Of a DNA stretch of 45,251 nucleotides, positions 1,741 through 44,324 are shown piece by piece. The stretch lies in the sequence record NC_073061.1. The stretch is one strand, 5' to 3'. A program made the position numbers and the translations under genes. Under the pieces are notes generated by a model. That model was not told the origin of the DNA and did not search any database. It saw nothing but the letters and a program-made list of their open reading frames with translations. Position 1 is the stretch's first letter. Each line of letters starts with the position of its first letter. Source of the DNA: Escherichia phage vB_EcoS-101114BS4.

Positions 1741-1780
1741 TTGACTTGCAACCAACATAGGGTCCATACTGCAACCAATC
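1741..1780 (+). promoter_or_regulatory. Sigma70-like promoter carrying two direct GCAACCAA motifs
   Basis: TTGACT (1741-1746), 17-18 bp spacer, CATACT; GCAACCAA at 1748 and 1771; 20 bp upstream of the ATG at 1799. Confidence 0.45.
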
Positions 1781-2159: not shown

Positions 2160-3302
2160 ATGCACCCGCAAACTAAAATTACCGACGAGCAATTGATCGC
2201 TGAATTGCAATCTGGCACTACCTCGAAAGATATTGCGAAGAAATACGGCCTTTCCCTTCGTAATGTCTATATGCGCAAAGCCCGCCTGTCGAAGAAAGGT
2301 ATTGGACACGGCAACGATGCTGTAATCCGTAAGCGCGTTGCCGATGGCTTCGGCGTTAAGCGTGTATCCGCCCTGGTGCGTGGCAATGGCGAAGAGGTCA
2401 TGTCCTGGGTCATCACCGAGCAGGACAAGGAGCGCCAACTTGAAGCAATGCGCGCCGTTGTCGAGGGTATGAACAGCGAAATCACACCGGCAGCACCAGT
2501 GAGCGCTCCGCCAGTCCCGATCCAGGCGCTTGACCTGCTTAACCTGTATACCGTGTCGGACTTCCACCTGGGAATGTTGGCATGGGGCGAGGAGACTGGC
2601 GAAGACTGGGATATGGCAATCGCCGAAGACCTTTTCTACCGCTGGTTTGTCGAAGCCTTCGCCCGCGCGCCGGACGCTGGCACTGCCGTAATCAATATCC
2701 TCGGTGATATGGCCCACTTTGACAGCCTCGACGCCGTTACGCCAGCCAGTGGTCACGTACTGGATGCCGATACCCGCTACCAGAAGTTGGTCCGCTACAT
2801 GATTCGCATGGTGCGCAACGTGGTTGAACTGGCGCTGCAAAAACACCATAAGGTCAAACTGCTAATCGTCCAGGGTAATCATGATGAGTCCGGTATGATT
2901 TGGCTGGCTGAAATGTTCAATACCCTGTACGAGAACGAGCCGCGCGTTGATGTGGACACGTCACCGGACGTATACAAAATGGTGCAGCACGGCAAGACAA
3001 CGCTGTTCTTCCACCACGGGCACAAAGCACGCTTTGACGCTATTGAGCCGGTCATGATTTCTAAATTCAGACAGGCTTTCGGGTCCAGTGAGTACAGCTA
3101 CGCGCACGTGGGCCACTTGCACCACCAGAAGATTGTCGAATCCCGTAACATGATTGTTGAACAGCACCGGACCCTTGCCGCGAAAGACGCATATGCAAGC
3201 CGTGGCGGTTGGATGTCCGGTCGCAGTGCAAACGTCATCACCTATAGCGCCAACTACGGCGAAGTAGCGCGCTTAACCATTAGCCCGGAAATGTTGAAAT
3301 GA
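2160..3302 (+). CDS. HTH domain fused to a calcineurin-like metallophosphoesterase
   Basis: N-terminal helix-turn-helix-like segment (TSKDIAKKYGLSLRNVYMRKARL); metallophosphoesterase motifs SDFH (DxH), GDMAH (GDxxH), GNHDE (GNHD), HHGH. Confidence 0.6.
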   Translation: MHPQTKITDEQLIAELQSGTTSKDIAKKYGLSLRNVYMRKARLSKKGIGHGNDAVIRKRVADGFGVKRVSALVRGNGEEVMSWVITEQDKERQLEAMRAVVEGMNSEITPAAPVSAPPVPIQALDLLNLYTVSDFHLGMLAWGEETGEDWDMAIAEDLFYRWFVEAFARAPDAGTAVINILGDMAHFDSLDAVTPASGHVLDADTRYQKLVRYMIRMVRNVVELALQKHHKVKLLIVQGNHDESGMIWLAEMFNTLYENEPRVDVDTSPDVYKMVQHGKTTLFFHHGHKARFDAIEPVMISKFRQAFGSSEYSYAHVGHLHHQKIVESRNMIVEQHRTLAAKDAYASRGGWMSGRSANVITYSANYGEVARLTISPEMLK

Positions 3303-5575: not shown

Positions 5576-7096
5576 ATGACCGTTAACGTTGACAACCAGC
5601 ACCCACTCTATGCGCGCATCGCGCAGGAGTGGAAAATGATCCGGGATTGCGTAGCGGGGGAGCGCGCCGTGAAGGCGTGCGGCCCCTTGTACCTGCCACA
5701 TCCCGCCAGTGGCGATAATACCGACCCGAAAGCACGGGCGCGATATAAGGCATATAAGCAACGCGCTGTATTCCTGAACGCCACCGCACGCACGCTTAAT
5801 GCGCTGTTAGGCGTCGCCTTCGCTAAGCCGGTAAGTCTGGACCTTTCCGGGGCGATGGCTGACCTGATTGATGACGTAGACGGCAGCGGAATGCCACTGC
5901 CGCAACTCCTGCGCGGTGCTATGTCGGAAGTGCTGCAATCGGGCCGCGCGGGCTTTATGGTGGACTACGACCGCCAGGCTAACTTTGATGAACTGGGTAA
6001 CGTAGTGCCGCAGACCGCCGCCGAGATGGCGACGCACCGCCCGCTTATCCGCCTGTATACGGCAGAACAGATCATCAACTGGCGGCAGACCCACGGGATT
6101 GACACGCTAATCGTGCTGAAGGAAACGGACGAAATCAGCACCGAAGACCCGGACGACTTTGCAAACCACGAAGTAACGATCTGGACTGAATTGCGCATGA
6201 TTAACGGCGCGGCACACGCCCGCCGCTGGTTTTACAACGCAGACACGTCCGAGGTGCAGATGGACTTGCCGCGTGGCTTCACCCGCACCGAGCTTGTGCC
6301 GCTGGTGGATGCTGCCGGTCGAGCGCTTACTCAACTGCCATTTTGCTGGTGCGGTGCGGTGGACAACAACGCAACGCCTGACGCCGCGCCGCTGGCGGAT
6401 ATTGCATCCATCAACATTAAGCACTACAACGCTGAGGCGGACGTTGCCGAGATCGCGCACATCGTGGGCCAGCCTACCCTTGTCGCCACGGGCTTGACTC
6501 AATCATGGGCCGACAAAAACCTGAAGGGTGGGATTGCTCTCGGCGCGACTAAGGGCGTTATCCTGGGCCAGAACATGGACGCTAAACTGATTCAGGCCGA
6601 GGAGCGCAACTTGTCTGTTGCACTTTGTGAGCGCCGCGAATTGCAGATGGCTAAACTGGGCGCGGCCCTGGTTGAGAAGGGGACTGCACCAAAGACGGCA
6701 ACGGAAGCGGCATACGATGCGCAGACTGACAATAGTATCCTGTCGCTCATTGCCGGTAACGTTGAGAAGGCTTTCAACCGTGCGCTGCAAATCGTCCAGC
6801 TATTCACGGGTGATACCGCGGACCAGCGCGTGACGCTGAACAAGTTCTACACCGAAATCACGGTTGACGCGCAGCTTATGACCGCAATGATGGCTGGTGT
6901 TCAGACCGGTACGGTCCGACTGGCTGACTTCATCAAGTGGATGATGGCGCAGGGCGTTATCGATGACTCGCAAACCGTAGAGCAGGTGGAAGACGAATTG
7001 CGAAATCAGAATCCATTGCCTCAAATGTCCCCTGATGCGGTAGAATCTACCGAAGAAGACCCGGACAAGGTAGCGGACAATGGCGAGAACAATTAA
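5576..7096 (+). CDS. Portal protein
   Basis: 506-aa ORF directly after the large terminase, acidic C-terminal tail; assigned by size and synteny. Confidence 0.7.
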   Translation: MTVNVDNQHPLYARIAQEWKMIRDCVAGERAVKACGPLYLPHPASGDNTDPKARARYKAYKQRAVFLNATARTLNALLGVAFAKPVSLDLSGAMADLIDDVDGSGMPLPQLLRGAMSEVLQSGRAGFMVDYDRQANFDELGNVVPQTAAEMATHRPLIRLYTAEQIINWRQTHGIDTLIVLKETDEISTEDPDDFANHEVTIWTELRMINGAAHARRWFYNADTSEVQMDLPRGFTRTELVPLVDAAGRALTQLPFCWCGAVDNNATPDAAPLADIASINIKHYNAEADVAEIAHIVGQPTLVATGLTQSWADKNLKGGIALGATKGVILGQNMDAKLIQAEERNLSVALCERRELQMAKLGAALVEKGTAPKTATEAAYDAQTDNSILSLIAGNVEKAFNRALQIVQLFTGDTADQRVTLNKFYTEITVDAQLMTAMMAGVQTGTVRLADFIKWMMAQGVIDDSQTVEQVEDELRNQNPLPQMSPDAVESTEEDPDKVADNGENN

Positions 7097-8183
7097 TCAA
7101 CATATGGCGGATCGCATGATTCGCCGTCACATCTTCACCCAGCGCCTGAGCAATGACCAGGCGCGGCGGGTGTTGGCTATGTGGGAGAAGTTCCGGCCCA
7201 CGTTACTTGGCAAGCTGACCGAGTTACTTGATGGCAAAAAGTCCATGAATAACAAGGCACTGACCACACTGTTAACGCAAATCGACAAGACCGTCAAAAC
7301 GGAACTGCGCACCGAGTTTAAGGCGCTGGCTGAAAGCCTTCAGGAGTTTGCCGACACCGAGGCTGATTATCTTGCCGATACATTAACGGCAGCGATCCAG
7401 CCTGCGGTAGCCGTACCGGCTGTTGAGGTTGTTGGCGTAGTGACTGGCGCGCAGATTGCAGCCACGGCTATGAAAAACCCGTTCCAGGGAAACACCATGA
7501 TGCAATGGCCTGATTCACTTTCTGAGTGGACCAGGACGCAGATCGGGAATCAGGTGCGCGCTGGATTCATCCAGGGCAAGCCGACTATGGAAATTATCGC
7601 GGACGTAAAGCGCGCTCTCGGCGGTCGTAGCGCGCAAGCTATCTCAAGTGTTGTTAAGTCCGCAGTAAACCACTATGCGGCGACCGCCCGCGAGTTAATG
7701 GTGAAAGCTAATGACGATATTCTCGAAGGTCGCCAATGGTTGGCTACATTGGATACGCACACATCACCAATGTGCCAGCTACGCGATCGCCTGTTTTATC
7801 CTGTTGACGTCACTCCCGACACCAAAGGAAAGCGCGGCGGGAAAGTGGTGGCTGGATCACAATATGGCGCTGGTCCGGGCAAGCTACATTATTGCTGCCG
7901 TTCGACGGAGACGTGGAAAGTTAAAGGCATGGAAGATTGGCCCAGTGGTAAGCGTCCGGCACTGAAGGCTGACGCGGGTCGATTGCTGAGTGAGCAGGTC
8001 GACGCGCAGACTGATTTCTTCTCATGGGTGCAGCGCCAGCCGCGCCATATTCTGGAGGAATTATATGGGGTGCAGCGCGCAGACCAGATTATGCGCGGCG
8101 TGAAAGTGCCGAAGATGTTCACCGATACCGGCGAACTAATGACTATCGCACAGCTTAAAAACCGGGGGTTATGGCGTGATTAA
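7080..8183 (+). CDS. Head morphogenesis (minor head) protein
   Basis: 367-aa ORF overlapping the portal 3' end; position typical of F/gp7-like head morphogenesis proteins. Confidence 0.55.
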   Translation: MARTINQHMADRMIRRHIFTQRLSNDQARRVLAMWEKFRPTLLGKLTELLDGKKSMNNKALTTLLTQIDKTVKTELRTEFKALAESLQEFADTEADYLADTLTAAIQPAVAVPAVEVVGVVTGAQIAATAMKNPFQGNTMMQWPDSLSEWTRTQIGNQVRAGFIQGKPTMEIIADVKRALGGRSAQAISSVVKSAVNHYAATARELMVKANDDILEGRQWLATLDTHTSPMCQLRDRLFYPVDVTPDTKGKRGGKVVAGSQYGAGPGKLHYCCRSTETWKVKGMEDWPSGKRPALKADAGRLLSEQVDAQTDFFSWVQRQPRHILEELYGVQRADQIMRGVKVPKMFTDTGELMTIAQLKNRGLWRD

Positions 8184-9990: not shown

Positions 9991-10017
9991 TGTGCAACCA
10001 ATATAGTGCAACCAATA
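9991..10017. promoter_or_regulatory. Divergent control region with two direct TGCAACCAAT motifs
   Basis: TGCAACCAAT at 9993-10002 and 10008-10017, between the minus-strand start at 9970 and the scaffold start at 10120. Confidence 0.5.
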
Positions 10018-26054: not shown

Positions 26055-26135
26055 GTTATCATCTCCTATATTTGGTTGAGTTTTAGTATTGCACCGCTCA
26101 ATCAAGAATGCAACCAATTTTAAGAGGATTCAGCT
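26055..26135. promoter_or_regulatory. Divergent control region between the lipoprotein and lateral fibre genes, with a TGCAACCAAT motif
   Basis: GCAACCAA at 26110-26117 and a degenerate copy (ttggttga) at 26073; 18 bp upstream of the ATG at 26136. Confidence 0.45.
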
Positions 26136-27662: not shown

Positions 27663-27668
27663 TGAGAA

Positions 27669-27690
27669 GGGGCCATACGGCCCCTTTTTT
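27669..27690. terminator. Terminator (bidirectional) between the fibre gene and the end of the leftward operon
   Basis: ggggcc-atac-ggcccc hairpin followed by tttttt. Confidence 0.75.
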
Positions 27691-28264
27691 AGTTTGAGTT
27701 TTCCCAGTCCATTTTGCGCCGTACTAACGGGCTTTCGTAATATTCCTTGCCCTCCACTTCCACCAGAGGCCAGTCGTTGACAATCACGTATGGTTCCGCA
27801 ATATCCTCAATCACGCCGTGTGCGCTATGTTGCCCGAACGATACGCCCACCAGGATAACACCGGCAACCCGACGGGTGAGATACTCGCGAGCGCAACGCG
27901 CCTCTACCAGTCCGCGACGGATGCCGCTGGTGGCTTTGACCTCGTAGGTCCAGACGGCATCAATCATGTGCTCACGGAAGTCGGGGCCGGACTTAACCTT
28001 GCGTTTACCGACCATGATAATATCGCCGCGGTCGATAGTATTGGCGCTAAACAGGCCGGTACGCATAAGCAAGCCTTGCGGGATACAACTACGCCCGCCT
28101 GCCTGCCCTTCAAGGTACATGCCAGCAAACATCTCGCCCAGCACACCGACAAGTCGGCTTTGCTTGCACGCGTCAGACTTTAATCGCCACTGGTCAAACT
28201 CGACGCTCGCCAACATTGCCGCTATGTGGAATTGTTTACCGGTTATTTCGTATTCGCCGTACAT
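27689..28264 (-). CDS. Hypothetical protein, possible PD-(D/E)xK-type nuclease
   Basis: 191 aa; segment GPDF...IDAVWTYEVK is compatible with a PD-(D/E)xK core but is weak evidence. Confidence 0.45.
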   Translation of the reverse strand: MYGEYEITGKQFHIAAMLASVEFDQWRLKSDACKQSRLVGVLGEMFAGMYLEGQAGGRSCIPQGLLMRTGLFSANTIDRGDIIMVGKRKVKSGPDFREHMIDAVWTYEVKATSGIRRGLVEARCAREYLTRRVAGVILVGVSFGQHSAHGVIEDIAEPYVIVNDWPLVEVEGKEYYESPLVRRKMDWENSN

Positions 28265-28306
28265 TGTGAAGCCCTCATTGCTGCGGGCCGAAGCCCGCTA
28301 TTAGAA

Positions 28307-28900
28307 TTATTTAAGTGCGCTAGTCACCAGTGTTTTTTCCATATTGCGGAAGTCTTCCGGCGTCATGAGTATTTTGGACCCATCCTCGCCAGTGAGCACT
28401 ACCATAGGCTGGACTTCTTGATCTGCCACACCGAAATTGGCAGCTTTAACCGTCTTTCCGAACGAGGCCACCGTATCCTCGGCAACGCGCATTGCACTGT
28501 TATACGCATTAATCTCGCCATCCAGGCGCACGGACAGGTCCGAAGGCTTGAACGCGCCGCCGGTCTTGATAGGCCAACCTTTGAGGCTGTCGAATTGCGC
28601 TGCCGTTGTATCGATCTGAATCTCGTCATGCACGGTCATGTAAGACTCGCCCAGCAAAGCGGAATACGCAACCAGATCAACAATATTGTCTTCCTGGTGC
28701 TTACGGTGCTGGCGCACCAGCTTCAGGCAGATCAGGAAGGTCCAGGCTTCTTGCTCGGTAAGGTCGCGACCGGTAAGCGCGTTAAACACGGCAGCGATTT
28801 GCTTCGCGCTGCGTTCTTCTTTCGCGTTGTCATAGCCGTTTTCTTTCCCGCGCTGTTCCATAGTGGTGGCGGCGTTCTTGCAGTATTCAAATGCTTTCAT
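28307..28900 (-). CDS. Hypothetical phage protein
   Basis: 197 aa with AAGGAAA RBS; the N-terminal 85 aa resemble a widespread phage family of unknown function (not verified). Confidence 0.55.
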   Translation of the reverse strand: MKAFEYCKNAATTMEQRGKENGYDNAKEERSAKQIAAVFNALTGRDLTEQEAWTFLICLKLVRQHRKHQEDNIVDLVAYSALLGESYMTVHDEIQIDTTAAQFDSLKGWPIKTGGAFKPSDLSVRLDGEINAYNSAMRVAEDTVASFGKTVKAANFGVADQEVQPMVVLTGEDGSKILMTPEDFRNMEKTLVTSALK

Positions 28901-28950
28901 GATGTTTTCCTTTTAGTGGGGGCCGGATTGCCCCGACGCGTTAACTATAG

Positions 28951-28972
28951 TGCAACCAACCTATTGGTTGCA
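28951..28972. promoter_or_regulatory. Perfect palindrome TGCAACCAA-CCTA-TTGGTTGCA (candidate operator)
   Basis: 9-bp inverted arms with a 4-bp spacer, overlapping the stop codon of the HAD gene and 50 bp upstream of the next start. Confidence 0.6.
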
Positions 28973-29431
28973 AGTAAATTTTGCTACGTTTATAGAATAA
29001 ATTTTCGGGACCAGATCGCCGCACGCGCGACGGATGGCTTCGATATTCTTCGGGCAGTCTTCAATGATGACCAGTTCGGACACGTCCGCATAGCACACCA
29101 TTTTGAACACCGCGCACGCCTTAAACTCTGGCGGCGGGGTGTCATCCAGCATGTGGCGCATAAACAACCGGCCCACCGGGAAGATCTCCAGTTGCTCGGC
29201 GGTGGTGTCCCAACATTCGCGCTGCCGGTTTGTCAGATACGCGATCTCGAAGCCTTGCTCTTTGTACATGCGCAACAGCGGCAGCATATCCATGTTAAGG
29301 TCTTCGCGTACGTGTGCTTTGTGCCACTTCGCCCAAAAGGTTGATTTGGTTTTTATGCCGGGCACCAGGTCAGCACGCGCATCACTTGAACCATTAATAA
29401 CGCCATCCAGATCACAAATCAGTAGTTTCAT
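28961..29431 (-). CDS. HAD-superfamily phosphatase, 5'(3')-deoxyribonucleotidase-like
   Basis: N-terminal HAD motif I LICDLDGVI; 156 aa. Confidence 0.55.
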   Translation of the reverse strand: MKLLICDLDGVINGSSDARADLVPGIKTKSTFWAKWHKAHVREDLNMDMLPLLRMYKEQGFEIAYLTNRQRECWDTTAEQLEIFPVGRLFMRHMLDDTPPPEFKACAVFKMVCYADVSELVIIEDCPKNIEAIRRACGDLVPKIYSINVAKFTCNQ

Positions 29432-29652
29432 TTTAAGCTCTCAATAAGGGTGTGTCGGGCGCTTCGCGCAGTAAAGGAGTTGCATACGAAGTGGCAACGT
29501 TTGGTTATGACAAGCCAACCGGTAAGGTCCAGGCCCATGATGGATTCGGGTCGGGATACACGCATCACGCGGTCGCGGCGCGGGTCAATGGAGAAGTCCC
29601 GTTGCATTTGGTCCACTACCGCGGGGTCGCGGTCAACGACTAAGATATTCAT
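29428..29652 (-). CDS. Hypothetical protein
   Basis: 74-aa ORF with GAGAGAG RBS, translationally coupled (ATGA overlap) to the downstream gene. Confidence 0.5.
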   Translation of the reverse strand: MNILVVDRDPAVVDQMQRDFSIDPRRDRVMRVSRPESIMGLDLTGWLVITKRCHFVCNSFTARSARHTLIESLK

Positions 29653-30118
29653 GTAGTTCTCTCTCGCTCATTATTTCAATTTGTGCGCTGCCGTTTGGCG
29701 GCGCTTCATCAAATATTATCAATTGCTGGCACTTGTTATTGCTCGGCCCAACTTCGCCGGTCACAGCATGGATGAATCGCACACGCCAGTCCAGAAGAAT
29801 TATCATATTGGCAGTCTTCCGGGCCAGCTTCGCCCACTTCGTTGACGTGTCCTGATTCAGTAGCATGACAGTACGGCGTCCGTGCGCAGCGCACTCGACC
29901 CACGGCAGCGGATCGGAGTACGGCGGATTGCACCACTTCCACCCTTTCAACTCTGACCAGTCCGCCTCAAGCGCGCTATGCTCCGCCGTGAAGTAGCGCG
30001 GTAGCAGGTGATTGGTGTCGCTTGCCGCCATATCGTAACGGAATCGGTATTTCTTACGAAGCGGTTTAAATAAAGCTGGCGGCGTACGCCAGCTATCTTT
30101 TTGCTCACTCTTCGTCAT
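29633..30118 (-). CDS. DNA N6-adenine methyltransferase, phage Dam-like
   Basis: WCNPPYS (motif IV N-PP-Y) and upstream WRTPPALFKPL, about 160 aa, consistent with the short phage Dam family; start chosen at the ATG at 30118. Confidence 0.6.
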   Translation of the reverse strand: MTKSEQKDSWRTPPALFKPLRKKYRFRYDMAASDTNHLLPRYFTAEHSALEADWSELKGWKWCNPPYSDPLPWVECAAHGRRTVMLLNQDTSTKWAKLARKTANMIILLDWRVRFIHAVTGEVGPSNNKCQQLIIFDEAPPNGSAQIEIMSERELHEYLSR

Positions 30119-30569
30119 TCTGCGGGTCCAGTGCGTATAGGGCAATCTTTTCGTATTTGCCGACTATGCGATGCACGCGCTTTGCGTCCTCTTCACTACG
30201 TGGGCGCGCATCCGGGTAGTAGCTACCCGTCTGAGTATTGTGCCACGCCACAAGCACCAAATCTTTACGATCAACCTTAGACTGTCTACCTTTAGGTCGC
30301 ACGTACTCCTCCGCACGTTTGCAATGTTCCCGCAGCCCTTCGGCAGTGATGCGGTTTAGCGCAACGCTGGTTGTGTATCCGGTGCGCTGCATAATCCCCA
30401 TCAATTCGAAAAGCAGTTCGAAGCGTTCCTCTAACTCCCGGCGCACTTTCTTCTCTCCTTCATATAGCGCCTGGTTGGTGTCCGCCAGCGCGTTCGCGCG
30501 TTCGGCCTGTTCACGGGCTTCGAGGCATTGCGCGGCCCAGTATGCTTTTTCTTCTTGTAAAATTTTCAT
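30105..30569 (-). CDS. Hypothetical coiled-coil protein
   Basis: ATG at 30569 (MKILQEEKAYWAAQ...) with GGAG RBS; the GTG at 30611 lies inside the terminator hairpin and is rejected. Confidence 0.55.
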   Translation of the reverse strand: MKILQEEKAYWAAQCLEAREQAERANALADTNQALYEGEKKVRRELEERFELLFELMGIMQRTGYTTSVALNRITAEGLREHCKRAEEYVRPKGRQSKVDRKDLVLVAWHNTQTGSYYPDARPRSEEDAKRVHRIVGKYEKIALYALDPQNDEE

Positions 30570-30588
30570 CGTGTTGTCTCCAGGTATT

Positions 30589-30613
30589 AAAAAGGGCGTC
30601 CAACCGGACACCC
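30589..30613 (-). terminator. Internal intrinsic terminator in the leftward operon
   Basis: On the minus strand: gggugucc-gguu-ggacgccc hairpin (one G-U pair) followed by uuuuu. Confidence 0.55.
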
Positions 30614-30623
30614 TTAAGATAAT

Positions 30624-30648
30624 GCAACCAATCTAATTACGCAACCAA
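30624..30648. promoter_or_regulatory. Pair of direct GCAACCAAT motifs
   Basis: GCAACCAA at 30624 and 30641 (17-bp spacing) between the stop of gene 30650..30973 and the internal terminator. Confidence 0.5.
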
Positions 30649-30649
30649 T

Positions 30650-30973
30650 TTATTCATAAAAATTCGGGTCGCGCGCTACATCTACCAGATAAAGGTTGCT
30701 CATTCGGTTGCCGTAGTGCCCTGGCGTGCGCTGGCGACACACAACTGCGAAGCCTGGAGGGATTGTATTGCCGGTTTCGATAATCCACGCCACGCGCGCG
30801 CCAGACAGCTTCTTGCCGTTGCATTCGATACGCGTACCGCCATCGGCAGTGTTAAGGTTGCCAATCTTGCAGCCGGTGGACTTCAGACGGATGACGCCGG
30901 TCTTACTGTCGTAGGTGAATAGTTGGTTAGTCATTGCGACCGAAAAATCGATGGCTTCGAATGTAGTGTTCAT
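30650..30973 (-). CDS. Hypothetical protein
   Basis: 107-aa ORF with GAGGA RBS; a C-terminal H..N..N pattern is too weak to call an HNH nuclease. Confidence 0.5.
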   Translation of the reverse strand: MNTTFEAIDFSVAMTNQLFTYDSKTGVIRLKSTGCKIGNLNTADGGTRIECNGKKLSGARVAWIIETGNTIPPGFAVVCRQRTPGHYGNRMSNLYLVDVARDPNFYE

Positions 30974-31665
30974 TTTAAATTTTCCTCATTGACTGCTATT
31001 GCGAAGCCGCGCGGAGTGAGCGACCGGATTAATTTGGTGCGGGCAGATTTGCCACCGAGGCGACTATACTGCTTCGAGTACCCTTTTTCAACGAATACCG
31101 GCTTTTTCTCCGGCATACGAAAGCCATTGCCAGTCCATAAACAGGTCAGCTTTGGGTATGAATCGCGGTCGTTGATGTATTCCGGGAACAACGGATGTAC
31201 GTCATCCTCCGGCAGATAGCCGCCATATTCCCACGGATCAAACGAGTGGTCTGGCTTGCGCCACTGGGTGGATAGCACACTGCGCGGATTCTCAATCATA
31301 TATGGCACTTCAAAGAAGTCACCCAGGTAAGCGGCAATCTTCGCGGTGCGCACTGCCTTAAGCTGAAAGGCGGGGTCTTTCGCACGCTTGCACGGGAAAG
31401 CTGGCGCACCGCTCACCGCCAGATCCGTACACGGCGGAAACGCGTAGATAATATCCGGCGTGCCGAAATCGCCATTCATCGCGCGGTCCACGAAGTCCAG
31501 ATCGATAAACTCGTTACGATAGCGGATACCGCGACCATAAATCCGGTAGTCAAGGTAAGACCCGTGATCGGCTTCCGAGTAGTTGAAACAGTAGCATTTA
31601 TGCCCCATCTCGGCAGCGCGCTCTATCATCAAGCCGCTGCCGTCAAATAATGACCAGATAATCAC
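30970..31665 (-). CDS. Compact C5-cytosine methyltransferase-like protein
   Basis: GTG start with AGAAGG RBS; motif I SLFDGSG, motif IV FPPCTD (catalytic Cys), motif VI-like ENP; only 231 aa, leaving little room for a target-recognition domain. Confidence 0.55.
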   Translation of the reverse strand: MIIWSLFDGSGLMIERAAEMGHKCYCFNYSEADHGSYLDYRIYGRGIRYRNEFIDLDFVDRAMNGDFGTPDIIYAFPPCTDLAVSGAPAFPCKRAKDPAFQLKAVRTAKIAAYLGDFFEVPYMIENPRSVLSTQWRKPDHSFDPWEYGGYLPEDDVHPLFPEYINDRDSYPKLTCLWTGNGFRMPEKKPVFVEKGYSKQYSRLGGKSARTKLIRSLTPRGFAIAVNEENLK

Positions 31666-40424: not shown

Positions 40425-40454
40425 ATAATAGATTGGTTGCAGGTGGGGTGTCAA
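40425..40454 (-). promoter_or_regulatory. Candidate sigma70 promoter for the leftward operon
   Basis: On the minus strand: TTGACA, 18 bp spacer, TATTAT; the spacer contains TGCAACCAAT; leader of about 190 nt to the ATG at 40228. Confidence 0.5.
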
Positions 40455-43527: not shown

Positions 43528-43718
43528 ACGGCAGCATGATGTGAATTGCTGTCGTCGACGAACTAGGCAACCAATGCGAGTTGCAAAATGGAGAGTGAAA
43601 AATGCAGTTTGCAGTTACAGCGGATAGGGATCGGCTTTTTCATACGCATGATTAATATTGGTTGCAATCAGCCTGGCACCTTGCTAGATTGGTTGCTCAC
43701 CAACATGAGGACTGAACA

Positions 43719-44054: not shown

Positions 44055-44324
44055 ATGAGCCGTAGGCGAGCTAAACAGCTTTCTTGGCACATTCCCCTGC
44101 ATTGCATACGAATATGGGCTAAGAACGCGATTGAGGGCGATTCCGTGTACTGGTGCTATCGCGATGACGTGAAGCCACTAACGCAGACTCGCTACTTGCA
44201 CCAGTTCGCAGCACAACATGATTTCTATGTGCGGACTTCCTTGCAACCAATGGGAATACGTATTACATTACGCCGGAAGCCCGCCGTTGAGCGGGTAGGC
44301 AAACACTGGAGACTGAGCAAATGA
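44055..44324 (+). CDS. Hypothetical protein
   Basis: 89-aa basic ORF; contains a GCAACCAA motif at 44243. Confidence 0.45.
   Translation: MSRRRAKQLSWHIPLHCIRIWAKNAIEGDSVYWCYRDDVKPLTQTRYLHQFAAQHDFYVRTSLQPMGIRITLRRKPAVERVGKHWRLSK

What the first reader, a model, noticed from the sequence alone, without database searches (positions are those of the whole stretch)
27689..30973. Accessory block at the distal end of the leftward operon
Between the C5-methyltransferase-like gene and the fibre terminator lie eight genes: six small ORFs of unknown or only weakly inferred function plus a Dam-like methyltransferase and a HAD nucleotidase. They are separated by an internal terminator (30589..30613) and regulatory motifs (28951, 30624). 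Blocks of small, fast-evolving genes at operon ends next to DNA-modification genes are typical locations for anti-defence or host-takeover functions.
Basis: inference. Interest (0 to 1): 0.5.

Follow-up and report, generated by a model that had tools for sequence, protein, structure and literature searches.

The report
Dhillonvirus counter-defence and DNA-modification gene block

Summary
The window is a Dhillonvirus genome (97% identical to vB_EcoS-CHD5UKE2 over the block). The coordinates 27689-30973 are exact gene boundaries, but the block holds seven minus-strand genes, not eight.

The seven genes are:
- an HNH-like 107-aa protein;
- a 154-aa protein;
- a Dam-type methyltransferase;
- a 74-aa protein;
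- a HAD phosphatase;
- a DUF6378 protein;
- a 191-aa PD-(D/E)xK-fold nuclease.

The internal hairpin with its T-run and the two motifs are real. TTGGTTGCA occurs 11 times in the window against 0.55 expected.

Each of the five genes searched by tblastn is in about 94-100% of some 156-160 Dhillonvirus records, the whole block in 150, and the order is kept in uncultured sister lineages (~55% aa identity). In that sense it is not a variable accessory block. Yet five of the seven genes are lost in some viable phage, and only two of seven persist in Eiauvirus.

Two genes evolve fast (dN/dS about 0.2, against 0.035-0.04 for polymerase and helicase), and both are published. The 74-aa protein is Ksap1, the trigger of Klebsiella Avs2 (89% identical to SECphi18). 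The 154-aa protein, mislabelled "DNA ligase", is the homologue of the ΦSMS22 anti-Tmn protein (73% identical).

The anti-defence inference is therefore partly supported, but already known. The other four non-methyltransferase genes remain uncharacterised.

The parts
30650..30973 (-). HNH-like 107-aa protein. Its start overlaps the stop of the C5-methyltransferase-like gene by 4 nt.
   Evidence: phrog_99 'HNH endonuclease' at 3.5e-15. No Pfam hit even at E=10. Present in 160 phage records, 150 of them at least 90% identical, plus 4 Eiauvirus records at 40%. dN/dS 0.06. The stretch GHY..R..NL is invariant out to Eiauvirus.
30587..30648 (-). Regulatory cassette 1: two TTGGTTGC boxes (30640-30648 and 30623-30631), a -10-like TATCTT, then a hairpin at 30592-30615 and a T5 run.
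   Evidence: The order of elements is conserved in all 17 compared loci, with compensatory changes in the stem. WF5505 annotates the hairpin as a terminator.
30105..30569 (-). 154-aa homologue of anti-Tmn (ΦSMS22 ORF35). Public records label it 'DNA ligase' without basis.
   Evidence: 73% identical over its full length to PP627283 CDS0035. The gene is missing from SM_A8, as the paper states. Helices at 2-63 and 76-90 fit the published description. 214 clusters at 90% identity. Only 5 of 153 phage copies are at least 90% identical. dN/dS 0.20, and 0.37 in codons 31-45.
29633..30118 (-). Phage Dam-type N6-adenine DNA methyltransferase (161 aa). It overlaps both neighbouring genes.
   Evidence: PF05869 at 1.3e-36. 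phrog_111 at 3e-55. NPPY is invariant. 40% identical to the Eiauvirus copy. dN/dS 0.10.
29428..29652 (-). Ksap1 (74 aa), the phage protein sensed by Klebsiella pneumoniae Avs2. Its stop overlaps the HAD start (ATGA).
   Evidence: 89% identical to SECphi18 gp51 and at the same place, between Dam and the phosphatase gene. L47 and T50 are conserved. The contact residues are M30, M39, F60, against K30, L39, F60 in SECphi18. 156 phage records hold it, only 9 at 90% identity or more. dN/dS 0.21.
28961..29431 (-). HAD-superfamily phosphatase (156 aa) with no kinase domain.
   Evidence: phrog_415 at 2e-36. Acid_phosphat_B at 3.4e-5, below the cut-off. Motifs I-IV are kept: D7, D9, K104 and D125 invariant, T/S at residue 67 and E/D at 124. 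Deleted in GeorgBuechner and KarlBarth, and not detected in LM40P1.
28917..28972 (-). Regulatory cassette 2: a palindromic pair of TTGGTTGCA boxes (28951-28972) that overlaps a TTGCAA-18-TATAGT promoter-like site, then a hairpin at 28917-28937 with no T-run.
   Evidence: The stem shows compensatory changes among relatives. The sister lineages carry 1-2 extra small ORFs just downstream of it.
28307..28900 (-). DUF6378 protein (197 aa): conserved N-domain, indel-rich middle, conserved C-terminal ~45 aa.
   Evidence: PF19905 at 4e-9, above the cut-off. phrog_9871. dN/dS 0.066 for residues 1-95 and 0.26 for 96-197, with three linker alleles.
28283..28298 (-). GCGGGC-UUCG-GCCCGC hairpin between the DUF6378 gene and the nuclease gene. 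It has no T-run.
   Evidence: The sequence is the same in all 15 loci aligned at this spot but one (Sodalis phage SO-1 differs by one stem base), L004 included.
27689..28264 (-). 191-aa predicted PD-(D/E)xK-fold nuclease.
27667..27686 (.). Bidirectional terminator hairpin shared with the convergent tail-fibre gene.
   Evidence: -15.7 and -18.7 kcal/mol, z -4.5 and -4.3. T6 follows on the + strand. WF5505 annotation.

Best explanation
The block is the promoter-distal end of the minus-strand replication and DNA-metabolism gene cluster of a Dhillonvirus. It has three sub-units, set apart by conserved promoter/terminator-like cassettes: [C5-like MTase–HNH-like] | [anti-Tmn–Dam–Ksap1–HAD, overlapping one another] | [DUF6378, nuclease].

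It works as a lineage-specific module at the interface with the host. The genes are kept in nearly all members, but most can be lost without killing the phage.

(1) The 154-aa protein is an allele of anti-Tmn. This is a helical rod with a hypervariable C-terminal domain that blocks the Tmn defence in an allele-specific way. That activity is shown for ΦSMS22 and inferred here.

(2) The Dam-type enzyme methylates adenine in phage DNA. This is inferred from the family and from the intact NPPY motif.

(3) Ksap1 is a small protein whose own job is unknown. The C-terminal sensor of Klebsiella Avs2 binds it, and this switches on the Avs2 nuclease. That is shown for SECphi18. Here two of the three contact residues differ, so recognition of this allele is uncertain.

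(4) The HAD phosphatase, the DUF6378 protein, the PD-(D/E)xK nuclease and the HNH-like protein are conserved enzymes or binders that act on nucleic acids or nucleotides. Their targets are unknown (inferred).

The fast divergence of the first and third genes is the mark of an arms race with host immunity.
For: Identity of the phage and of the block.

Anti-Tmn:
- ΦSMS22 ORF35 is CDS0035 of PP627283. It lies between the Dam and HNH-like genes and is 154 aa long.
- The window protein is 73% identical to it over its full length.
- SM_A8 lacks exactly this gene, as the paper says.
- The published fold description fits helices 2-63 and 76-90.
- The family is confined to Dhillonvirus and close kin. 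Only 17 hits turned up among 1.84 billion representative proteins.

Ksap1.

Rates of change:
- dN/dS is 0.20-0.21 for these two genes. It is 0.035-0.04 for PolA, SNF2 and the C5-like gene, and 0.06-0.10 for Dam, HAD, the nuclease and the HNH-like gene.
- Only 5 of 153 and 9 of 156 public copies are at least 90% identical to the window's. The figures are 149 of 156 for the nuclease and 150 of 160 for the HNH-like gene.

Dispensability:
- KarlBarth lacks the HAD, DUF6378 and nuclease genes.
- HK578 and SM_A8 lack the 154-aa gene.
- In GeorgBuechner the HAD gene is deleted and Ksap1 is truncated.
- SECphi18 tolerates ksap1 deletions made in the laboratory.

Lineage specificity: Eiauvirus keeps only the Dam and HNH-like genes.

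Catalytic motifs are intact. The nuclease fold is supported.
Against: - No experiment exists for this phage or for these alleles.
- Anti-Tmn activity depends strongly on the allele. The closest tested allele (KS_S9, 81% identical) had only limited effect on the PLG026 Tmn.
- Ksap1 is known only as a trigger; nobody has shown an anti-defence role for it.
- My own model of the 154-aa protein has low confidence (pLDDT 62, C-terminal domain not modelled).
- Equating 'ORF35' with CDS0035 rests on four things: the numbering, the absence from SM_A8, the structure description and the distribution. The paper prints no sequence to check against.
- Four genes have no functional evidence beyond fold or family.
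- Near-universal presence and purifying selection would also fit ordinary housekeeping roles.
Confidence: 0.78

Rival explanations
1. This is an ordinary core module for replication and nucleotide metabolism. All seven genes serve phage DNA synthesis and have nothing to do with host immunity.
For: Each gene searched is in about 94-100% of the genus and the whole block in 150 records. Sister lineages keep the same gene order. dN/dS is well below 1 for every gene. The block lies directly downstream of the polymerase and helicase genes.
Against: Viable natural phages lack one to three of the genes. Laboratory deletions of ksap1 and of anti-Tmn give viable phages. Published experiments tie two of the genes to Tmn and to Avs2. 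Five of the seven genes are absent from Eiauvirus, which shares the replication core at 58-71% identity.
Confidence: 0.08
2. The nuclease, the methyltransferases, the HAD phosphatase and DUF6378 form a host-takeover pathway. The PD-(D/E)xK nuclease cuts unmodified host DNA while the phage's own methylation protects phage DNA. The phosphatase then processes the released nucleotides, as host DNA breakdown plus the Dmp 5'-deoxynucleotidase does in T5 (from my own knowledge of T5).
Confidence: 0.1
3. The HNH-like and PD-(D/E)xK genes are selfish homing endonucleases, and the small genes around them are their cargo.
Against: Both genes are universal, sit at a fixed place and are under strong purifying selection (dN/dS 0.06-0.07). 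The HNH-like gene keeps its place next to the helicase even in Eiauvirus. Clearly sporadic HNH genes of these phages sit elsewhere, between the VRR-NUC and PolA genes. No Pfam HNH domain is detected.
Confidence: 0.04

Closest known systems
Anti-Tmn (ORF35) of Escherichia phage ΦSMS22, Dhillonvirus (Yamashita et al. 2025, Commun Biol, PMC11846954)
   Same: Same length (154 aa). Same place, between the HNH-like and Dam genes. 73% identity over the whole protein. The same long N-terminal helix and short second helix. The same narrow distribution in Dhillonvirus.
   Different: 27% of residues differ. The changes cluster in residues 31-45 and 106-154, and the paper shows that small sequence changes alter which Tmn variants are blocked. 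Activity of this allele is untested. The closest tested allele is that of KS_S9 (81% identical, weak against the PLG026 Tmn).
Ksap1 of Escherichia phage SECphi18 (Béchon et al. 2024, Nat Commun, PMC11564622)
   Same: 74 aa. Lies between the Dam and phosphatase genes. 89% identical. L47 and T50, the sites of the escape mutations, are conserved.
   Different: Of the three residues shown to be needed for Avs2 activation (K30, L39, F60), this allele has M30, M39 and F60. M39 is the state found in the unrecognised SECphi6 allele.
Phage Dam family PF05869 / TIGR01712
   Same: The domain is matched over most of its length (profile positions 4-151 of 169) and the NPPY motif is present.
   Different: The score is below the TIGR01712 equivalog cut-off, 86.7 against 97. 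The target sequence is unknown.
Phosphatase domain of polynucleotide kinase-phosphatase, and class IIIB acid phosphatases (HAD superfamily)
   Same: HAD motifs I-IV are present. phrog_415, HAD_PNKP and Acid_phosphat_B give matches, the last two weak.
   Different: The protein has only 156 aa. It has no kinase domain and no P-loop, so it is not a polynucleotide kinase. All Pfam scores are below the gathering cut-offs.
Small PD-(D/E)xK nucleases (I-Ssp6803I, NhoI, Hjc, DpnI catalytic domain)
   Same: The core fold and the E…D…ExK catalytic pattern.

Membership tests
anti-Tmn (ΦSMS22 ORF35 family) | Full-length sequence homology to ΦSMS22 ORF35 | tested here: met
   73% identity over 154 of 154 residues to PP627283 CDS0035.
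anti-Tmn (ΦSMS22 ORF35 family) | Gene present in ΦSMS22 and absent from ΦSMA8, at a fixed place in Dhillonvirus genomes | tested here: met
   SM_A8 has only 139 nt between the HNH-like and Dam genes. In the window the gene sits between those same two genes.
anti-Tmn (ΦSMS22 ORF35 family) | Rod made of a long and a short N-terminal helix, a ~12-aa linker, and a small C-terminal sheet between two short helices | tested here: inconclusive
   The AF2 monomer gives helices 2-63 and 76-90 at pLDDT 70-82. Residues 93-154 are below 50. No dimer prediction was possible.
anti-Tmn (ΦSMS22 ORF35 family) | Inhibits Tmn-mediated defence | not testable with these tools
   Needs plaque assays. Published results are allele-specific.
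Ksap1 | 74-aa protein homologous to SECphi18 Ksap1, lying between the methyltransferase and phosphatase genes | tested here: met
   89% identity and the same neighbours.
Ksap1 | Residues L47 and T50, whose change lets the phage escape Avs2 | tested here: met
   Both are invariant in all 7 aligned sequences.
Ksap1 | Contact residues K30, L39 and F60 needed to activate KpAvs2 | tested here: not met
   The window has M30, M39 and F60, so only one of the three is kept. This bears on recognition by KpAvs2, not on homology.
Ksap1 | Binds and activates KpAvs2 | not testable with these tools
   Needs co-expression toxicity tests or pulldown.
Phage Dam methyltransferase (PF05869) | Pfam domain above the gathering score, and the NPPY catalytic motif | tested here: met
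   126 bits against a cut-off of 28.1. NPPY is invariant in 18 sequences.
HAD phosphatase | Motif I DxDx(T/V), motif II T/S, motif III K, motif IV (E/D)D | tested here: met
   D7-L-D9-G-V, T67 (S in L004), K104 and E124-D125 are kept across 15 sequences; D7, D9, K104 and D125 are invariant and 124 is E or D.
HAD phosphatase | Score above the curated cut-off of a Pfam or NCBIfam HAD family | tested here: not met
   The best score is Acid_phosphat_B at 23.9 against 27. TIGR models give E values of 0.02 or worse.
Polynucleotide kinase (label in public records) | Kinase domain with a P-loop | tested here: not met
   The protein has 156 aa, all taken up by the HAD-like part. The sequence holds no GxxxxGK(S/T).
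DNA ligase (label on the 154-aa gene in public records) | Nucleotidyltransferase domain with the KxDG adenylation motif | tested here: not met
   No Pfam, NCBIfam or PDB match to any ligase. The alignments show no KxDG. One record itself says 'no evidence'.
PD-(D/E)xK nuclease superfamily | The alpha-beta-beta-beta-alpha-beta core with conserved acidic residues and lysine, D…(D/E)xK | tested here: met
HNH endonuclease / homing endonuclease | A detectable HNH domain with its catalytic His-Asn-His/Asn | tested here: inconclusive
   phrog_99 matches at 3.5e-15, but there is no Pfam HNH hit at E up to 10 and no PDB match. H86, N93 and L94 are invariant. I could not assign the catalytic residues.
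HNH endonuclease / homing endonuclease | Sporadic, mobile distribution among close relatives | tested here: not met
   Present at the same place in all 160 records matched, Eiauvirus included.
DUF6378 (PF19905) | Pfam domain above the gathering score | tested here: met
   37-39 bits against a cut-off of 27.1, residues 16-85. The family has no known function.

The most novel reading that the evidence does not exclude
The whole distal block is a coordinated counter-defence island, not one inhibitor sitting among housekeeping genes. On this reading:
- Ksap1 is itself an inhibitor of some still unidentified host defence, and Avs2 has evolved to guard against it.
- The translational coupling of anti-Tmn, Dam, Ksap1 and HAD reflects a shared task.
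- The conserved PD-(D/E)xK nuclease, the HAD phosphatase and DUF6378 destroy or disarm immune nucleic acids or signalling nucleotides.
- The two TTGGTTGCA cassettes are landing pads where further small counter-defence or exclusion genes are inserted.
Probability: 0.2. Interest if true: 0.6.

Novelty: already known. Interest (0 to 1): 0.3.

Why it matters
The result shows that reading gene position and size alone correctly flagged a place where phage and host immunity meet. It also corrects public annotation. The 154-aa gene is called 'DNA ligase' and the phosphatase 'polynucleotide kinase' in many records, and neither name is supported. Two points are of practical use for phage therapy. Which anti-Tmn and Ksap1 alleles a Dhillonvirus carries should predict whether it escapes Tmn and Avs2. 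Both genes are hypervariable, so each isolate needs typing. The four conserved genes with no known role (nuclease, HAD, DUF6378, HNH-like) sit next to two proven immunity-interface genes, which makes them reasonable candidates for knockout screens.

Tried and rejected
(1) 'DNA ligase' for the 154-aa protein is rejected. It has no ligase domain or motif and no PDB relative. The label comes from phrog_10530.

(2) 'Polynucleotide kinase', and with it a T4-like tRNA repair pair (kinase-phosphatase plus ligase), is rejected. There is no kinase domain and no ligase.

(3) Ksap1 as a degenerate copy of the N-terminal half of the HAD protein ('MNILVVDRDP' against 'MKLLICDLDGV') is rejected. hhalign gives a probability of 0.8%.

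(4) An RM-like pairing of the nuclease with the C5-like methyltransferase is weakened. EP23 has the nuclease without that methyltransferase.

(5) Sequence searches of PDB, with single proteins and with profiles, found nothing for the 154-aa, 191-aa, 74-aa, HNH-like and DUF6378 proteins and only non-significant matches (E 0.18 or worse) for the HAD protein.

(6) The AF2 model of the 154-aa protein was too poor for a fold search.

(7) The afdb50 fold library was not available.

(8) A MazG-like nature of DUF6378, which I suspected from memory, found no support in Pfam at E up to 10.

(9) I could not identify the Retron-Eco7 trigger of the Dhillonvirus 'phage98'. The paper names no gene and no supplement is held.

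(10) I looked for nmad5, the gene tied to Tmn sensing, among three large ORFs in the head-gene part of the window (2160-3302, 5576-7096, 7080-8183) and did not find it by Pfam. I did not pursue it.

(11) PADLOC gave only methyltransferase matches for Dam.

Full report
WHAT THE WINDOW IS. The 3,285-base block matches 157 phage records by megablast. Nearly all are Escherichia or Shigella phages of the genus Dhillonvirus. The best match is vB_EcoS-CHD5UKE2, 97.3% identical over 100% of the block. Gene order around the block is J-like tail tip, receptor-binding locus, lateral tail fibre (plus strand). This converges on a minus-strand cluster that runs exonuclease, SSB, PolA, VRR-NUC, SNF2 helicase, C5-methyltransferase-like, and then the block.

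CHECK OF THE OBSERVATION.
- The end coordinates are exact gene boundaries.
- There are seven genes, not eight. An eighth gene, an 80-86-aa membrane-like ORF, is present at this spot in Bas83, GeorgBuechner, Envy, LM40P1 and an uncultured relative. In this window only 80 nt lie there.
- Dam is solid: PF05869 at 126 bits, with NPPY.
- The HAD call is right by its motifs, although it is below Pfam's cut-off.
- The internal terminator exists. A 10-bp stem plus U5 lies at about 30587-30615. It shows compensatory stem changes across relatives and is annotated as a terminator in WF5505.
- The two 'regulatory motifs' are copies of TTGGTTGCA. This word occurs 11 times exactly in the window against 0.55 expected, and none of 100 shuffles reached 11. 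Nine of the eleven copies lie outside the genes I take as coding, several of them in pairs; I did not check the other two, at 1747 and 1770.

THE GENES.
(1) 30650-30973, 107 aa.
- It matches phrog_99 (HNH endonuclease) at 3.5e-15. It has no Pfam or PDB match.
- It is universal in the genus and keeps its place next to the helicase even in Edwardsiella phage eiAU-183, at 40% identity.
- So it does not behave like a mobile homing endonuclease.

(2) 30105-30569, 154 aa: see the section on published functions below.

(3) 29633-30118: the Dam-type methyltransferase.

(4) 29428-29652, 74 aa: see the section on published functions below.

(5) 28961-29431: a HAD phosphatase with intact motifs and no kinase part.

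(6) 28307-28900: an N-terminal DUF6378 domain, an indel-rich middle with three alleles, and a conserved C-terminal stretch of about 45 aa. I found no functional literature on DUF6378.

(7) 27689-28264, 191 aa.
- The AlphaFold2 model has pLDDT 82 and pTM 0.80.
- E44, D81 and E108-x-K110 are invariant down to 55% identity.
- BFVD holds a family of uncharacterised phage proteins with this fold.
- tblastn finds distant copies, for example 32% identity in Klebsiella phage vB_KPJD2.

CONSERVATION.
By tblastn against 50,697 phage records:

| Gene | Records that hold it | Copies at least 90% identical to the window's |
|---|---|---|
| HNH-like | 160 (156 Dhillonvirus-type, 4 Eiauvirus) | 150 |
| Nuclease | 156 at 60% identity or more | 149 |
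| Ksap1 (74 aa) | 156 | 9 |
| 154-aa gene | 153 | 5 |
| HAD | 151 at 60% identity or more | 139 |

- 150 records cover at least 80% of the block as DNA.
- Three metagenomic contigs of sister lineages keep all seven genes in the same order. Their nuclease is about 55% identical in protein and their PolA 80-83%.
- So the block is not variable in content within the lineage.
- On the other hand, five of the seven genes are missing or truncated in some viable phage. KarlBarth lacks the HAD, DUF6378 and nuclease genes. HK578 and SM_A8 lack the 154-aa gene. GeorgBuechner has lost the HAD gene and has a truncated 74-aa gene. LM40P1 gave no HAD match.
- In Eiauvirus the replication core is kept (SNF2 71%, PolA 63%, VRR-NUC 58% identical), but only the Dam and HNH-like genes of the block remain.

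RATES OF CHANGE.
Pairwise Nei-Gojobori estimates over 5-15 Dhillonvirus genomes per gene (12-15 for the block genes, 8 for PolA) give these dN/dS values:

| Gene | dN/dS |
|---|---|
| Ksap1 | 0.21 |
| 154-aa gene | 0.20 |
| DUF6378 | 0.15 |
| HAD | 0.10 |
| Dam | 0.10 |
| Nuclease | 0.07 |
| HNH-like | 0.06 |
| SNF2 | 0.039 |
| PolA | 0.035 |
| C5-like | 0.035 |

- Within the 154-aa gene, codons 31-45 (0.37) and 106-154 (dN 0.29, dS 1.25) carry most of the change.
- The 154-aa protein splits into 214 clusters at 90% identity. The nuclease splits into 7 and the HNH-like protein into 5.
- High dS in Ksap1 and in the C-terminal part of the 154-aa gene points to old alleles that are exchanged among phages.
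- No region exceeds dN/dS = 1 in these averaged estimates.

PUBLISHED FUNCTIONS.
Ksap1.
- Béchon et al. [quoted passage not shown]
- It binds the C-terminal domain of Klebsiella pneumoniae Avs2 and activates it.
- All six escape phages carried ksap1 mutations: partial deletions, L47R or T50P, and in one a frameshift.
- K30V, L39M and F60V together abolish activation.
- The phage tolerates large deletions in the gene.
- The window protein is 89% identical to SECphi18 gp51. It keeps L47 and T50 but has M30, M39 and F60.

Anti-Tmn.
- Yamashita et al. (PMC11846954) show that ORF35 of ΦSMS22, which is absent from ΦSMA8, inhibits the Tmn defence.
- Homologues are confined to Dhillonvirus, and small sequence differences change which Tmn variants are blocked.
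- In PP627283, CDS0035 is the 154-aa 'DNA ligase' gene between the Dam and HNH-like genes.
- SM_A8 lacks just that gene.
- The window protein is 73% identical to it over its full length.
- It is 81% identical to the KS_S9 allele, 72% to SM_S24 and 69% to Dru_SM5. All three are phages the paper lists as carrying homologues.
- An exhaustive profile search of 1.84 billion representative proteins found only 17 hits.

REGULATORY LAYOUT.
- Gene overlaps tie the C5-like gene to the HNH-like gene (4 nt).
- They also tie together the 154-aa gene, Dam, Ksap1 and HAD (overlaps of 14, 20 and 4 nt).
- Between these units lie two cassettes, each made of TTGGTTGC boxes, a -10-like hexamer and a hairpin. All relatives keep them.
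- In cassette 1 the hairpin starts 2 nt after the -10-like element. Transcripts started there would lack the 5' arm of the stem and would read through. Transcripts coming from upstream would terminate. This is inference, not shown.
- Extra small ORFs, membrane-like or lipoprotein-like, are inserted just downstream of cassette 1 in several Dhillonvirus genomes and one sister lineage, and downstream of cassette 2 in the sister lineages.

MECHANISM AND RIVALS.
- The best reading is a lineage-specific host-interface module that is kept in nearly all members, though most of its genes are individually dispensable. It holds one proven type of defence inhibitor (anti-Tmn), one proven immune trigger (Ksap1), a DNA methyltransferase, and four conserved proteins that act on nucleic acids or nucleotides and whose targets are unknown.
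- Pure housekeeping is unlikely, given the natural and laboratory deletions.
- A takeover pathway of nuclease, methylation and phosphatase remains possible. It is weakened by EP23, which has the nuclease but no C5-like enzyme, and by KarlBarth, which has the methyltransferases but no nuclease.
- A homing-endonuclease reading is contradicted by the fixed, universal distribution.

VERDICT.
- The key functions were published in 2024-2025 for orthologues in the same genus, so the finding is already known.
- What remains of interest: the four conserved uncharacterised genes, the tight coupling of the four-gene unit, and the TTGGTTGCA cassettes.

Noticed in passing
window 1747-1778, 9993-10015, 26109-26117, 28951-28972, 30623-30648, 40433-40441, 43658-43697, 44242-44250: TTGGTTGCA occurs 11 times exactly against 0.55 expected. 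The copies often come in pairs 13-31 nt apart, several of them just upstream of -10-like hexamers and gene starts. This looks like a genome-wide promoter element or operator for an unidentified factor.
   Followed up: partly
L001 5812-6054; L011 8976-9218; L013 9333-9575; L005 7201-7461; L004 8846-9287; L005 9160-9465: Relatives carry extra small ORFs right after the two TTGGTTGCA/hairpin cassettes. One is an 80-86-aa membrane-like protein. The others are 44-101-aa proteins, at least two of which begin with signal-peptide-like sequences. The cassettes seem to be insertion hot spots for moron-like genes. None of these ORFs has a Pfam hit.
   Followed up: partly
L014 (phage Ioannina) 7642-8334; window 29428-29431: In Ioannina one extra A in the run AAAA before the HAD start fuses Ksap1 and the HAD protein into one 230-aa ORF. 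In the window the two genes overlap by ATGA. This may be a sequencing error, or a hint that the two proteins work together. A profile comparison shows no homology between them.
   Followed up: partly
window 30970-31665: The 231-aa C5-methyltransferase-like protein has FDGSG, PPC and ENP motifs that are invariant across relatives. It has no Pfam, NCBIfam or PADLOC match. It is missing from Shigella phage EP23. In Eiauvirus a 330-aa PF00145 enzyme takes its place.
   Followed up: partly
window 28307-28900, residues ~106-150: The middle of the DUF6378 protein exists in at least three indel alleles among relatives. The window and WF5505 carry the longest form, which holds both alternative segments one after the other.
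   Followed up: no
window 27689-27800 and 27689-27739: The last 37 codons of the nuclease gene are 86% identical at the protein level to an unannotated stretch of phage mEp021. The first 51 bases of the block match phage AV106 at 94%. This suggests a shared recombination joint at the end of the tail-fibre module.
   Followed up: no
L012 (Sodalis phage SO-1) 13256-16218; L012 12587-13189; L016 12591-13223; L020 407-1117: The truly sporadic mobile elements of these phages sit elsewhere. One is an intron with its own ORF in the PolA gene of SO-1; EP23 carries a PolA ORF of the same extended length (3,189 nt), but no intron is annotated there. The other is a 200-236-aa 'HNH endonuclease' found between the VRR-NUC and PolA genes in only some genomes.
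   Followed up: no
window 28283-28298: A GCGGGC-UUCG-GCCCGC hairpin with no T-run lies between the DUF6378 and nuclease genes. Its sequence is the same in all 15 loci aligned at this spot but one (Sodalis phage SO-1 has one stem base changed), including a distant lineage. It may be an RNA processing or stability element.
   Followed up: no
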